From a virus (Duplodnaviria > Heunggongvirae > Uroviricota > Caudoviricetes): a stretch of DNA of 64,000 nucleotides. A program made the position numbers. Shown piece after piece: positions 21,001 through 24,000 of this stretch. The DNA is taken from IMG/VR virus record IMGVR_UViG_2703718819_000007. One strand, given 5' to 3'. Within the stretch, counting starts at the first letter, position 1. Every line of letters starts with the position of its first letter.

Positions 21001-24000
21001 ACCTATGGTTTCAACTCGCTACGCTCGCTACGTCTATTCTACGGTGGTCAGCGCCAGTAAATCCGTCAAGTACCACGCCAGTAAAGCTGGTTCATGATAA
21101 AGGACCCTAAACTATCACTATAGGGAAGACCAACCTTGCCTCTGAGTCTGATGCGTCAGAACATGCGAGCATCTGGTCAACCGACATTAAGTATCTCTCC
21201 TAAGTAATCAAGGCCCGTGACCGCCTCTGTCAGACCTCCTGTATGACCTCCAGCTCGTTAGCGTTCTTTAGTCGTCTCGGTTAGTAGCTCGTCTACTCAC
21301 TACATTGGCTTAAGTCTATCACCGCTCACCATCTGGAAGTCCTTACAGCTCGTCCTGACATGCGGTCGCACCTTTATACGTACATGGAGAACATGGTCAC
21401 TCCAGACCGTCAACATTTAACCATTCACTTTCGTTAAGCACTTTCTGATGGGTCCGTTTAGGATGCGTCTGAATGGTGCGGACTCCATGTGGAGACAGAA
21501 AGTGCTTTACCAAAGGAGCATCTTTGTATGAATACCGAATTACCAGTAACTAACCGCCAGTTCTTAATCATCCTGCTGACCAATGCAGAGTCCAGTGTCG
21601 ATTGCTGTCGCTATAACTTAGACCTGCTGAAGTTATCCCGATGGTATGCCCAGGCGGAAGACTGGGACTATGAGAAAATCCGGGAGATGTACGCGGAGCC
21701 TATCCAGTCATACCTCCAGACACACACCGAGGAAGAGCTGAAGCGTGGCCTGCAGGACATCTTCTATTTCAACAATCCTTACACCTGTGAGGGTGACTCA
21801 GAAGAGATGGATTGGATAGCGTCACGCTCTGATGCCGACTTGAAGCACATCTCTAACGCGATGATGCAGGTGGAGAGCAAATGGTCTCGCCGACTTCAGG
21901 TCCTAACTGAGGATTACGAAAACGGCACCTTTGATAAGCTGGTCCCACCTGATACCGAACGTCTTCAGGCGAAAGCTGACCAAGAACAGCGCTTCAAGTC
22001 CTTTGCCGAAGCTCTGGCGGGAGGTGCCTCTTATGACTTCTGACAATAAGCAGGAATACACCATTCATATCTTCGGTCAGGACATCACCAGTCAGGACGG
22101 ATTGTTTCGACTCGATGAAATTCGCCGGGTCGGCATTCAGATTGGCAAAGTAGAAGACACCGAGTCGACACAGTACAAGCGTTTTGCTCAGACCAAAGTT
22201 GGAAAGCTACTGAGGAATAGGCAGAAAATCCGCCTTATCCGAATGGGTGAACTCGGGTCTACCGTCCTTGCTGACCCCGCCGCTACTGTAGAGTTTGGTC
22301 GCTGGCTGGACTTTGAGTACGGACTGGCAGTCTCTGAAGCCTTCGTGTCTATGACCTCCAGCGCCACCGTGCAGTCTGCTGTAGCGTCTGCTGAGGACAT
22401 CAAGCCGGAGACCAAGGAATTCATCCAGCGTCATGGCACAGGCCTCTACATCGCCGGACGTGAAGTCTCACAGGCTGAGTATTCAGACTATCAAGCTGTG
22501 ACCGCTGGTCGCTGTGAGTGGAGGTAAGTAATCATGGCTATGATTGACCCACGCACACCTGAGGGCCGCATGACTCTCCGTTACCGTGGCTACCGGACTG
22601 AAGTCCTCCTCAGAGAGCTTGGTCTAGACCCGGAAGATGAGACCCGCCAGCACCAATCCCGAGACGAGCTGATAGCGCAACTGGTCGCTATGAAACTGTC
22701 TGCCTAATTTTAAAACCTTTTGAGATGACCGATGCGGGGAGACCCGTAGGCGCTACTGCGTCTGCGATACCGATAGTCTCAACTCTCAAGAGGAGAATTA
22801 CCTATGATGTTCAACAACAACAACTGGAAGCTGTCAGTCACCGACATCAACCTTTATGAAAACACTGTGAGTCTGGACGGTCAGCCCTATCCGCTGTCGC
22901 TCGCTATCAAGACCCTCATTCCGGGCTACCTGTCAGGCCTGCCGTCTACCAGCCGCGAGGCAATGGAGTTACTGGAAGCTCTGGCTGAAGCTGGCGTAGC
23001 TATTGGCAACTTCTTCAGTAATGACCTGATGACCGCCTATGGTCGCCGCCAGCTTAACAAACGAGCTGAGGCTGAGCGTATCGCTAAAGAGCTGGCATCT
23101 CAGAAAGAGCGTATGCGTGAAGAGAACATGACCGATGCAGAGTGGCAGAAAGAGCTACAGCGCCGCGAACAAGTCAAAGCTGAACGCCGGACCTATGGTG
23201 AGAACCTCCGCAGTGCAACCCATTCCGCTGGTCGCTCCCGTGCCGCTATTGTCGCTGACCTTGAGTCAGGCGGTAACTGGCTGGACAGCTTATAAGACAC
23301 ACAGTCCCTGACCCGATGTTAGGGACTCCTCAGTTTTGAGGACTCACAGTATTTAAACTAATTTAGGAGATTGATTATTATGACGATTAAAGACGCTTTC
23401 CAGTTTGGCATTGAGCCAGTACGCATCACCGATACCGACAACATTCAGGTCAATGAAGGTCTGCCGACTAACGCTGACCCGCAGGTCTACGCCCTCCAGT
23501 TAGCTAAGACGGTTAAGGCTATGCTGAACGGTGTACTTAAGGACGCTCAAGAGAACATCCCGTTCCCTGTAGAAGTCCTGCCGACCCGTAACAGCTTACC
23601 GACCCCAATCATTGCCCACACTCTGGCTGACCGCTCTGTGGTCGTTCCTGTCCGTGGTGGCAAGCGACCTGAAGTCGTGACCATTCCGTCTGGACAAGAA
23701 ATCGTGGTCGAACCAATCGAGCAGGCTATTCTCATCTCTGAGCAGACCACTCTCTGGGACGCCAAGTCATCCACCGGATTCACTCAGGGCACACTTCAGC
23801 AGGACGCTATGAACATCTGTGAGAATGTGGTCCGTACCATCAACGCTCACATGGTCGACGTTCTGGAATCCTCTAAGCTGCTGAAGACCGTAGAGCTTCC
23901 TGTCCTGACTGGTAGCCTGACCGCTAAGGCAGACGCTATCATGGACGCTCTGTATGAGAACACAGAGCCTTCTTTCGGTTCTGAGGTGTCTAACTACGGT

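What the first reader, a model, noticed from the sequence alone, without database searches (positions are those of the whole stretch)
21129..21527. 400-nt ORF-free stretch immediately downstream of the second phage-type promoter
In a compact islet where other genes are separated by 0-80 nt, this ~400-nt stretch has no ORF of 60 aa or more. It contains the palindrome TCTGATGCGTCAGA and a related GATGCGTCTGA motif. In T7 the primary replication origin lies just downstream of RNA-polymerase promoters and needs transcription to fire, so this could be a transcription-activated origin. A structured noncoding RNA made only in the presence of the helper polymerase is the alternative.
Basis: inference. 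Interest (0 to 1): 0.6.

Follow-up and report, generated by a model that had tools for sequence, protein, structure and literature searches.

The report
Structured RNA leader in phage satellite
The gene-free 400 bases encode a tightly folded RNA that starts exactly at a K1F-type (T7-like) phage promoter, at the head of the main operon of a small phage-parasite island in E. coli. Its fold is conserved across several genera, but what it does is still unknown.

Summary
Window 21098-21527 has no ORF of 60 aa or more, and homologues share no conserved short ORF. It lies directly after a promoter that matches the Kayfunavirus (K1F-like) consensus.

The stretch is not spacer. Homologues occur in 155 of 5,426 complete E. 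coli genomes, in five other genera and in 30 metagenome contigs.

An alignment of 33 distinct sequences supports an RNA fold that starts at +1 (G21123):
- a linker;
- a ~165-nt rod with a conserved unpaired AAGUCUAUCACC.

Of the pair positions counted, 90.7% pair, against 30-37% in slid controls. Sixteen pairs changed on both sides; 0 of 500 shuffles reached this.

The last ~110 nt form a separate, swappable hairpin module that pairs the Shine-Dalgarno sequence.

There is no Rfam match, no counterpart in the phage collections searched, and no AT-rich tract as in the T7 origin.

The islet is a ~6.7-kb satellite-like element with an integrase, an HK97-fold capsid protein and mimics of the helper phage's ends.

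Best reading: a helper-polymerase-dependent structured leader or noncoding RNA. The origin idea is not supported. The RNA's function is inferred, not shown.

The parts
21106..21128 (+). Kayfunavirus (K1F-like, T7-group) phage RNA polymerase promoter, positions -17 to +6; +1 is G21123
   Evidence: TCACTATAGGG at 21115-21125. 26 of 27 nt identical to the promoter upstream of the phiYIO1-1 capsid gene, and fits that phage's 9-promoter consensus. Present in 211 phage records.
21123..21183 (+). 5' hairpin domain of the RNA. Stems P1-P3 enclose the 5' end of the transcript.
   Evidence: Every one of 23 distinct variants folds into a single extended hairpin in which nt +1 to +10 are paired. P1 uses different sequences in different lineages: GACCA/UGGUC, GGGA/UCCC, GGACCAU/GUGGUCC. 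P2 and P3 covary (helices 1 and 2).
21147..21160 (+).
   Evidence: Two adjacent pairs switch together in 12 of 33 sequences (U-A/C-G to C-G/U-A). The UGCG loop is kept in 29 of 33.
21184..21209 (+). Linker CCGACAUUAAGUAUCUCUCCUAAGUAAUC between the two domains. It carries one copy of the UUAAGU..UC.CC motif.
   Evidence: Conserved in most variants but replaced in the L030 type. Direct-repeat family D4.
21207..21376 (+). Rod domain: a ~165-nt irregular hairpin closed by AAGG (21210-13) pairing with CCUU (21370-73)
   Evidence: Covariance model R1 scores 115 bits (E = 5e-27) and finds exactly one copy per islet. Helices 4-9 are 82-98% paired, with compensatory changes in helices 4-9. Both strands of the 136-148 / 245-258 helix extension are present or absent together. 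Independent single-sequence folds of divergent homologues give the same architecture.
21312..21323 (+). AAGUCUAUCACC, the most conserved sequence of the RNA. It is predicted unpaired, on the 3' side of an asymmetric internal loop opposite GUUCUU.
   Evidence: Columns 222-229 of A3 are unpaired in the RNAalifold consensus and in all single-sequence folds. The central GUCUAUC is nearly invariant.
21395..21408 (+). Small terminal hairpin GGUC-ACUCCA-GACC that ends the core. It is lost or replaced in some islets.
   Evidence: Present as GGTCAnnnnnnGACC in most homologues. In L010, L047, L048 and L049 the core is fused at TATGGTC to a fragment of a KilA-N/Rha gene.
21416..21527 (+). 3' module A: a long hairpin (arms 21428-21447 and 21496-21515) whose base pairs the Shine-Dalgarno AAAGGAG (21512-21518). 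The ATG of the 171-aa gene follows at 21528.
   Evidence: Inverted repeat I1. RNAalifold on 9 variants. 90% paired against 43-57% slid, with only modest covariation. Other islets carry a different hairpin module in its place (CCUCAAGUC...CUUGAGUAGG...AAAAGGAG), and the module travels with the downstream gene.

Best explanation
The stretch is the template for a highly structured RNA of about 255 nt (core), or 405 nt counted to the start codon. It is the first thing transcribed from the islet's strongest promoter.

That promoter has the consensus of Kayfunavirus (K1F-like, T7-group) phages. No sigma-70 promoter lies in the stretch. The RNA should therefore be made only after a matching helper phage has injected and expressed its single-subunit RNA polymerase. 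This last step is inferred from established T7 biology.

The RNA has three parts:
1. A 5' hairpin domain that buries the 5' end, as the GGGAGACC...GGUUUCCC hairpin does on the T7 and K1F-type capsid mRNA.
2. A ~165-nt rod with a conserved asymmetric internal loop (GUUCUU opposite AAGUCUAUCACC).
3. A separable hairpin next to the ribosome-binding site that occludes the Shine-Dalgarno sequence.

Most likely mode of action (inferred). It works at the RNA level, in cis, as a leader. It would shield the fast-made, ribosome-free operon mRNA from 5'-end-dependent decay. That mRNA encodes an HK97-fold capsid protein. The leader would also offer double-stranded processing sites of the kind T7 places between its promoters and genes. 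The rod's conserved loop would serve as a docking site for a protein not yet identified.

Shown here: the promoter match, the absence of a conserved ORF, conservation across genera, and the covarying fold.

Inferred: transcription, stabilisation and processing, unmasking of the ribosome-binding site, and protein binding.
For: Promoter identity. No sigma-70 promoter or intrinsic terminator lies inside the stretch.

No ORF: nothing of 60 aa or more. Short ORFs differ in position, frame and length among 38 distinct homologues, and indels are not multiples of three.

Conservation: 155 of 5,426 E. coli genomes; Shigella, Leclercia, Buttiauxella, Citrobacter and Enterobacter; 30 of 32 metagenome hits confirmed.

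Fold:
- RNAalifold on a sequence-only MAFFT alignment of 33 distinct sequences gives 13 of 30 pairs with compensatory changes.
- For my 66-pair structure, 90.7% of cells pair, against 30-37% when partners are slid. Sixteen pairs changed on both sides, against 2-5 slid, and 0 of 500 shuffles reached this.
- Helix 7 exists in at least three sequence states: AGCG/CGCU, GAAG/CUUC and GUGUG/CACAC.
- Both strands of one helix are inserted or absent together. Different apical hairpins occupy the same tip.
- In the well-aligned rod helices, G.U cells outnumber A.C cells 53 to 9. This favours the plus strand as the folded strand.
- The fold starts at +1 in all variants.

Other points. The core keeps its place at +1 while downstream genes, the module next to the ribosome-binding site, and up to ~350 nt of junk vary. 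A divergent islet has a non-homologous 640-nt leader behind another T7-type promoter; it also folds into a 5' hairpin plus a long rod (z = -5.0). The helper's own capsid mRNA starts with a comparable GGGAGACC...GGUUUCCC hairpin.
Against: - No transcript, processing or binding data exist. Everything after 'it folds' is inference.
- A 5' hairpin alone would be enough for 5'-end protection. The leader model therefore does not explain why a 165-nt rod with sequence-conserved loops is kept.
- The leader of the neighbouring gene, behind promoter 1, is only 35 nt and unstructured. Long leaders are thus not a general need of islet genes.
- At the nucleotide level the core is less conserved (67-96%) than the islet's core genes (75-99%).
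- My 66-pair structure was derived partly from the window's own minimum-energy fold, which inflates the percentage paired.
- Compensatory cells count sequences, not independent events.
- Over all 66 pairs the G.U versus A.C asymmetry is weak (83 to 55).
- One natural recombinant (L080/L081) breaks the register of helix 7, although an alternative 5-bp pairing keeps the rod.
- The stem that pairs the Shine-Dalgarno sequence never varies, so covariation says nothing about it.
Confidence: 0.5

Rival explanations
1. The RNA is a trans-acting noncoding RNA effector. The core would be released, for example by cleavage in the downstream hairpin module. Through the rod's conserved loop it would bind a helper or satellite protein, such as the phage RNA polymerase, terminase, or the islet's own capsid or 163-aa protein. 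That binding would redirect or inhibit the helper.
For: - Loop nucleotides are conserved in sequence: AAGUCUAUCACC, GUUCUU, and two GC-CUC-UG helix junctions.
- The core is independent of the downstream gene and of the module next to the ribosome-binding site.
- There is one copy per islet, in every islet that carries the conserved 163-aa and 329-aa proteins.
- The rod architecture recurs in a non-homologous leader.
- CUAUCAC in the loop equals promoter positions -11 to -5 of the helper.
- AAGTCTA-CACC recurs beside the pause-like site at 18685-18695, and AGTCTATCA lies in the helper's terminal repeat.
Against: - No defined 3' end: there is no terminator after the core.
- The loop motif stays the same in islets whose promoters have a different specificity (L041, L042). 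It therefore does not track the cognate polymerase.
- The short motif matches (7-11 nt) are near chance level.
- No partner has been identified.
Confidence: 0.25
2. The stretch is a transcription-activated replication origin or primer RNA. The helper polymerase's transcript would prime DNA synthesis by the helper replisome, as at the T7 primary origin or as ColE1 RNA II does. The fold would serve formation of the primer.
For: - No Rep or primase gene is recognisable in the islet, so it must borrow replication functions.
- Strong phage promoters, tandem in some islets, precede an ORF-free stretch.
- Primase-type pentamers are present: TGGTC at 21171 and 21393, GGGTC at 21449.
- From established knowledge (Richardson laboratory work), cloned T7 promoters can act as origins during infection.
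Against: - No AT-rich tract lies downstream (GC 46-51%); the AT-rich maxima are elsewhere.
- The transcript is pyrimidine-rich (GC skew about -0.25, AT skew about -0.29). From general knowledge, this disfavours stable RNA:DNA hybrids.
- Three primase pentamers in 405 nt is close to the ~1.2 expected by my own estimate.
- BLAST finds nothing similar in 50,697 phage genomes, apart from the promoter itself.
- Pieces copied from the helper's genome ends lie elsewhere in the islet.
Confidence: 0.1
3. The fold exists in single-stranded DNA, not RNA. It would be a hairpin in the displaced plus strand, used for priming or processing like the single-strand origins of rolling-circle replicons.
For: G.T pairs are tolerated in single-stranded DNA too, so covariation alone cannot tell RNA from plus-strand DNA. 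The rod contains TAGCGT (21263-21268), which resembles the CS-6 motif of ssoA-type origins; I recall that resemblance from memory.
Against: - The fold begins exactly at the transcription start, and its first helix uses the GGGA initiating sequence. A DNA hairpin has no reason to do that.
- TAGCG lies in a stem and is replaced by GGAAG or GTGTG with compensating changes. It is not a conserved loop motif.
- No rolling-circle Rep gene is present.
Confidence: 0.05

Closest known systems
Leaders and RNase III sites of T7-group late mRNAs (promoter-R site pairs; the phi10 leader hairpin GGGAGACC...GGUUUCCC)
   Same: It starts at +1 of a T7-group promoter with the GGGAGACC-type initiating sequence. 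The 5' end is buried in a hairpin. Irregular hairpins sit between the promoter and the ribosome-binding site. The helper's own capsid leader has the same opening.
   Different: It is 3 to 10 times longer: 405 nt, against 50-175 nt for the phiYIO1-1 leaders. It carries a conserved 165-nt rod with sequence-conserved loops. It shows no sequence or covariance-model similarity to the helper genome. Cleavage by RNase III is untested.
T7 primary replication origin (promoters phi1.1A/phi1.1B plus a 61-bp AT-rich region)
   Same: One or two phage promoters followed by an ORF-free stretch. The element has no replication genes of its own.
   Different: No AT-rich region. Conservation is of base pairing, not of a DNA motif.
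ColE1 RNA II pre-primer
   Same: A long, folded, promoter-proximal RNA in a replicon that lacks a Rep protein.
   Different: The transcript is pyrimidine-rich, there is no detectable origin downstream, and the RNA runs straight into an operon. There is no sequence or Rfam match.
6S RNA (a rod-shaped RNA that sequesters RNA polymerase)
   Same: A rod of about 165-180 nt with conserved internal loops. One loop contains 7 nt identical to part of the helper promoter.
   Different: It is made as the 5' part of an mRNA. The loop does not co-vary with promoter specificity. No open-promoter-like central bubble is evident. There is no Rfam 6S match.
Phage satellites: PICMI (PMC10803314), capsid-forming PICIs (bioRxiv 10.1101/2022.09.08.507074) and P4 with its leader-derived CI RNA
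   Same: The host element is a ~6.7-kb integrase-bearing island of PICMI-like size. It carries its own HK97-fold capsid gene, as capsid-forming PICIs do. P4 shows that a satellite can use a leader-derived RNA as a regulator (from my own knowledge).
   Different: Expression is gated by helper-polymerase promoters, and the helper would be a virulent T7-group phage. No such satellite or RNA turned up in six literature searches. There is no similarity to the P4 CI RNA.

Membership tests
T7-group (Kayfunavirus-type) phage promoter | Match to the ~23-bp consensus from -17 to +6, including the specificity region at -12 to -8 | tested here: met
   21107-21133 is 26 of 27 nt identical to the promoter before the phiYIO1-1 capsid gene. 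All nine promoters of that phage read (A/T)A(A/G)CTATCACTATAGG. 211 phage records hold it, and some annotate it as a promoter.
T7-group (Kayfunavirus-type) phage promoter | Transcription by the phage polymerase from the predicted +1 | not testable with these tools
   No expression data are available.
Conserved structured RNA (an RNA family in the Rfam sense) | Secondary structure kept by compensatory substitutions across homologues | tested here: met
   16 pairs changed on both sides (2-5 in slid controls; 0 of 500 shuffles), and 90.7% of cells paired. Paired indels also fit the helices.
Conserved structured RNA (an RNA family in the Rfam sense) | No conserved protein-coding frame | tested here: met
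Conserved structured RNA (an RNA family in the Rfam sense) | Membership of an already curated family | tested here: not met
   No Rfam 15 match at E <= 1 in 17000-27000.
T7-type primary replication origin | Phage promoter(s) directly upstream | tested here: met
   Promoters are tandem in some islets.
T7-type primary replication origin | AT-rich region of about 60 bp directly downstream of the promoter | tested here: not met
   GC is 46-51% across 21075-21600. None of the eight most AT-rich 50-nt windows of the islet lies in 21098-21527.
T7-type primary replication origin | Replication starts here during infection | not testable with these tools
   Needs nascent-strand mapping or a plasmid amplification assay.
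T7 RNase III processing site | Irregular hairpin of about two helical turns with an internal loop, between a promoter and a gene start | tested here: inconclusive
   The rod and the 3' module are such hairpins by prediction, but no sequence consensus exists against which to test them.
T7 RNase III processing site | Cleavage by host RNase III | not testable with these tools
   Needs an rnc mutant or an in vitro assay.
6S-like polymerase-sequestering RNA | A rod with a central bubble that mimics an open promoter and binds the polymerase | tested here: inconclusive
   The rod is present. The loop shares CUAUCAC with promoter positions -11 to -5, but it does not change in islets that carry other promoter types. 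Binding is untestable here.
Phage satellite (host element of the RNA) | Integrase, helper-dependent expression signals, helper-like packaging signals, and no complete virion gene set | tested here: met
   Tyrosine integrase. Kayfunavirus promoters. Mimics of the helper's terminal repeat and pause site, and a 32-bp exact match. Only an HK97-fold capsid protein and a gp7.3-like protein are recognisable as virion proteins. Mobilisation itself was not tested.

The most novel reading that the evidence does not exclude
The rod RNA is an effector in the conflict between satellite and helper. It would be an abundant, helper-polymerase-made RNA that docks a phage or satellite protein through its conserved asymmetric loop. 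Candidate partners are the single-subunit RNA polymerase (in the manner of 6S RNA), terminase, or the islet's own HK97-fold capsid protein. The binding would divert transcription, packaging or capsid assembly towards the satellite. This would be the first RNA-based hijacking device described for satellites of T7-like virulent phages.
Probability: 0.2. Interest if true: 0.85.

Novelty: new variant of a known kind. Interest (0 to 1): 0.6.

Why it matters
T7-group phages such as K1F are standard models and candidates for therapy against E. coli K1. No satellite that parasitises them turned up in the literature I could search.

This RNA is the first and most strongly promoted product of such an element. 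Together with the mimics of the helper's genome ends, it is one of the few noncoding parts shared across islet subfamilies and genera.

It would be an uncurated RNA family that is switched on by a viral polymerase. It is a direct handle for asking how a 6.7-kb island senses and exploits a virulent phage. Simple tests are available: 5'-end mapping, compensatory mutagenesis and pull-downs.

If it turns out to be only a stabilising leader, it is still a useful natural part for T7-polymerase expression systems.

Tried and rejected
- Rfam scan of 17000-27000 at E <= 1: no match.
- BLAST of the stretch and of the whole islet against 50,697 phage genomes: only the promoters and one 32-bp piece matched.
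- IMG/VR scan with a core motif: 28 hits, of which only 2 were real. Judging from the contig names, both come from isolate-genome proviruses, so there is no evidence of the RNA in free phage genomes.
- Conserved short ORF: rejected.
- Sigma-70 promoters and intrinsic terminators in the stretch: none.
The rod-only model R1 found no second copy in the window, in the helper genome, or in the divergent islets L088 and L089.
- The 329-aa protein gave no PDB sequence match. A first AlphaFold run on a shallow alignment was useless (pLDDT 36). hhalign against the helper's capsid and scaffold proteins found nothing. The question was settled only after a deeper alignment.
- Pfam, PHROGs, PADLOC and NCBIfam on the other islet proteins: only an integrase, a gp7.3-like protein and one PHROG of unknown function (phrog_23123, the 122-aa protein).
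- The 51-aa ORF at 24850-25005 compared with the helper's gene-19.5-like protein: no similarity.
- Terminal overlaps in islet-sized metagenome contigs, as a sign of circular forms: none.
- Six literature searches for T7- or K1F-type satellites or promoter-gated islands: nothing relevant.
- G.U versus A.C asymmetry over all 66 pairs is weak. It is clear only in the well-aligned rod helices.
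Full report
**Where the finding sits**

The window is E. coli chromosome. The best match is 98.4% identical to strain 30EVA1. The finding lies in a ~6.7-kb islet inserted in ynfE. All islet genes are on the plus strand:

| Feature | Coordinates |
|---|---|
| Tyrosine integrase | 18657-20234 |
| ORF-poor stretch | 20235-20728 |
| Promoter 1 | +1 at 20694 |
| 122-aa ORF | 20729-21097 |
| Promoter 2 | +1 at 21123 |
| The finding | 21098-21527 |
| Gene (171 aa) | 21528-22043 |
| Gene (164 aa) | 22033-22527 |
| Gene (57 aa) | 22534-22707 |
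| Gene (163 aa) | 22804-23295 |
| Gene (329 aa) | 23377-24366 |
| Gene (79 aa, gp7.3-like) | 24372-24611 |

**The observation**

The stretch holds no ORF of 60 aa or more on either strand. The longest are 41 aa on the minus strand and 25 aa on the plus strand.

The promoter call is right, and it can be made more precise. TCACTATAGGG is at 21115-21125. Positions 21107-21133 are 26 of 27 nt identical to the promoter in front of the capsid gene of Escherichia phage phiYIO1-1. That phage is K1F-like and carries an endosialidase tailspike. Its nine promoters all read (A/T)A(A/G)CTATCACTATAGG. The same promoter occurs several times per genome in 211 phage records, mostly Kayfunavirus-type: K1F, EcoDS1, CR44b, Dev2 and others.

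The claim that all other gaps are 0-80 nt needs one correction: 20235-20728 is a second long unannotated gap.

**It is conserved and it is not coding**

- blastn finds the 431-nt stretch in 155 of 5,426 complete E. coli genomes, at 69-98% identity. The homologous loci I opened carry no annotation over the stretch.
- Matches begin or end at the borders of the stretch, so it behaves as a module.
- A scan of species-representative genomes with the islet's 329-aa protein brought in islets from Shigella, Leclercia, Buttiauxella, Citrobacter and Enterobacter. All but the truncated contig L043 contain the element.
- A metagenome scan for 'promoter plus GCCTCTG' gave 32 contigs, 30 of them confirmed.
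- Indels are frequent and are not multiples of three.
- Short ORFs differ in position, frame and length among 38 distinct homologues.

**Anatomy**

The conserved core runs from +1 (21123) to about 21376, or to 21408 if the small GGUC...GACC hairpin is included. It is 158-255 nt long in different islets.

*5' domain (21123-21183).* In 23 distinct variants it folds into one extended hairpin that pairs nt +1 to +10 with the end of the domain. Lineages use different sequences for this: GACCA/UGGUC, GGGA/UCCC or GGACCAU/GUGGUCC. Two adjacent pairs of that stem switch together in 12 of 33 sequences.

*Linker and rod.* A linker follows. Then comes a ~165-nt rod closed by AAGG pairing with CCUU.

Evidence for the rod:
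- RNAalifold on the MAFFT alignment, which used sequence only, predicts it. Thirteen of its 30 pairs show compensatory changes.
- Minimum-energy folds of six divergent homologues, each folded alone, give the same architecture.
- My 66-pair structure combines the 5' stems P2 and P3 with the rod. In it, 90.7% of cells pair, against 30-37% when partners are slid by 1-3 columns. Sixteen pairs changed on both sides, against 2-5 slid and 9.8 +/- 1.5 in shuffles; 0 of 500 shuffles reached the observed value. The covariation score is 0.138, against 0.016-0.043 slid.
- Helix 7 occurs as AGCG/CGCU, GAAG/CUUC and GUGUG/CACAC. Helix 6 occurs as CCAG/CUGG or GCAU/AUGC. Helix 4 occurs as CCGC/GCGG or CAGC/GCUG.
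- A 13-nt insertion on the 5' strand and a 14-nt insertion on the 3' strand, which pair with each other, are always present or absent together.
- Unrelated small hairpins occupy the rod's tip in different islets.

The most conserved sequence, AAGUCUAUCACC (21312-21323), is unpaired. It forms an asymmetric internal loop opposite GUUCUU.

In the well-aligned rod helices, G.U cells outnumber A.C cells 53 to 9. Over all pairs, including misaligned ones, the ratio is only 83 to 55. The plus strand is therefore favoured as the folded strand, but this evidence is moderate.

A covariance model of the rod finds exactly one plus-strand copy per islet, at 59-126 bits. It finds none elsewhere in the 64-kb window and none in the helper genome.

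**The last ~110 nt are a different module**

Positions 21416-21527 form a long hairpin (arms 21428-47 and 21496-515). Its base pairs the Shine-Dalgarno AAAGGAG with UUCACUUU. Covariation here is modest: 5 pairs against 2-5 in slid controls. The stem that covers the Shine-Dalgarno sequence never varies, so it is neither supported nor refuted.

Other islets carry a different hairpin module before a similar ribosome-binding site. The module travels with the downstream gene. Up to ~350 nt of junk can lie between core and module, including fragments of a KilA-N/Rha gene joined at a TATGGTC microhomology. The core's role is therefore not control of that ribosome-binding site.

**Origin hypothesis**

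The T7 primary origin consists of promoters plus a ~60-bp AT-rich tract (established knowledge). Here:
- GC is 46-51% across the stretch, and the transcript is pyrimidine-rich.
- The AT-rich maxima of the islet lie elsewhere.
- Apart from the promoter, BLAST finds nothing similar in the 50,697-genome phage collection.

Pieces copied from the helper's genome ends lie elsewhere in the islet:
- 20316-20347 is 32 of 32 nt identical, in inverted orientation, to a site downstream of the helper's phiOR-like promoter.
- 25083-25115, and CTCACAGT and GGACCGATGGT at 25013-25032, resemble the helper's left terminal repeat.
- 18662-18684 (TCTCTGGGTCTCCCTATCTGTAT) resembles the helper's TCTCTGAGTCTCTATCTGTAT. 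That is the counterpart of the T7 concatemer-junction pause signal CCCTATCTGTT, which I quote from memory.

Packaging and processing signals at the DNA level are thus more likely at the islet's ends. I cannot exclude that the promoter also fires replication.

**What the host element is**

Most islet proteins match no family. The exceptions are the integrase, a weak gp7.3-like hit for the 79-aa protein and one PHROG of unknown function (phrog_23123) for the 122-aa protein.

A profile search found remote relatives of the 329-aa protein, and a few of them carry C-terminal Ig-like domains. With these in the alignment, AlphaFold gave a confident model (pLDDT 84). The model matches HK97-fold capsid proteins and encapsulins: phi29, T5, Kp9, PhiM1 and HRP29, with Foldseek E about 1e-9 and probability 1.00.

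So the islet has the hallmarks of a small satellite of Kayfunavirus phages that brings its own capsid protein. I found no description of such an element. PICMI is a parallel in size only.

**Mechanism**

Shown:
- a helper-type promoter;
- a covarying fold that starts at +1;
- no conserved ORF;
- independence of the core from the downstream cargo.

Inferred:
- The RNA is made only after infection.
- Its 5' domain protects the transcript, like the GGGAGACC...GGUUUCCC hairpin of the helper's capsid mRNA.
- The rod and the 3' hairpin act as barriers to decay or as processing sites.
- The conserved loop binds a protein.

A non-homologous 640-nt leader behind another T7-type promoter, in a divergent islet, also folds into a 5' hairpin plus a long rod (z = -5.0). 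This hints that the architecture itself is what is selected.

My estimates:

| Reading | Probability |
|---|---|
| Cis-acting leader | about 0.5 |
| Released, trans-acting RNA | about 0.25 |
| Origin or primer | about 0.1 |
| Single-stranded-DNA hairpin | about 0.05 |

**Caveats**

- There are no expression data.
- The structure I tested was derived partly from the window's own fold.
- Compensatory cells are not independent events.
- The recombinant L080/L081 shifts the register of helix 7, although the rod is kept.
- The core is less conserved in sequence than the islet's core genes.

Noticed in passing
window 18551-25261: The whole islet looks like an undescribed satellite of K1F-like (Kayfunavirus) virulent phages. 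It has a tyrosine integrase and two helper-type promoters, and is inserted in ynfE. A 15-nt att-like repeat, AGTTCCAGATG(G/A)ACT, lies at 18536-50 and 25247-61. TGACACAA(A/G)G repeats, of the kind integrase arm sites show, lie at 18704-23 and 25158-95.
   Followed up: partly
window 23377-24366: The 329-aa orphan protein has an HK97 capsid/encapsulin fold (pLDDT 84; Foldseek E about 1e-9 to the phi29, T5, Kp9 and PhiM1 capsid proteins and to encapsulins). A few remote relatives carry C-terminal Ig-like domains. The islet therefore encodes its own capsid protein.
   Followed up: yes
window 20316-20347: 32 of 32 nt are identical, in inverted orientation, to phage phiYIO1-1 positions 40046-40077. 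In the phage this lies in the leader between its phiOR-like promoter and the gene-19.5-like ORF. The sequence forms a GGAGGG...CCCTCC hairpin. It may be a borrowed packaging or origin signal.
   Followed up: partly
window 25005-25115 and 18662-18695: Mimics of the helper's left terminal repeat (CTCACAGT, GGACCGATGGT, TCTCCCCCATAGCCCCGCCTCAAGTCCAGACC) lie at the islet's right end. A mimic of its concatemer-junction pause signal (TCTCTGGGTCTCCCTATCTGTAT) lies in the first codons of the integrase gene. After excision and circularisation these pieces would lie in the same order as in the phage, across the attachment junction.
   Followed up: partly
window 20449-20648: Three tandem direct repeats of ~82 bp, each with CTTGACAT...CTGTGAGTC and an AT-rich TTTATATATAC tract, lie just upstream of promoter 1. 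They look like iterons. They occur only in islets that carry the 122-aa ORF.
   Followed up: partly
window 24372-24611: The 79-aa ORF resembles the T7 gp7.3 host-range and virion-assembly protein (phrog_1320, E = 1.8e-11; weak match to Pfam PF11653).
   Followed up: partly
window 24850-25005: An unannotated 51-aa hydrophobic ORF with a strong ribosome-binding site (GAAGGAGG) lies just before the terminal-repeat-like sequences. It is not similar to the helper's gene-19.5-like protein.
   Followed up: partly
L047 5061-5100, L040 5035-5075, L052 2989-3030: Some islets carry two tandem promoters of different specificity in front of the RNA: a T3-like CCCTCACTATAGGGA and CTATCACTATAGGGA. This suggests they respond to more than one helper polymerase.
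   Followed up: no
L024, L030/L042 and L041 (RNA core and its 3' flank): The mini-palindrome GCTAGCAAGCTAGC (also GCTAGTTAGCTAGC and GCTAGCTTGCTAGC) is inserted at different positions of the RNA in different islets, as if it were a small mobile hairpin.
   Followed up: no
L052 2405-3000; L010 4429-5000: Islets integrated at a tRNA-Gly site, which carry a DUF4145 gene, have an unannotated ~550-nt stretch upstream of the core. In L052 it follows two further T7-type promoters. It may encode a second helper-dependent RNA.
   Followed up: no
L089 1-670 (also L088): A divergent ynfE islet, whose capsid-like protein is 41% identical, has a GGTACACTATAGGGAGAGA promoter followed by a non-homologous 640-nt leader. 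That leader is also strongly structured (z = -5.0) and has a 5' hairpin and a long rod.
   Followed up: partly
L054-L085, and contigs listed for P0001, P0004, P0005 and P0009: Many metagenome and isolate assemblies contain contigs of 6.2-6.9 kb, which is the islet's size. This fits either excised multicopy forms or assembly breaks at the att repeats. No terminal overlaps were found.
   Followed up: partly
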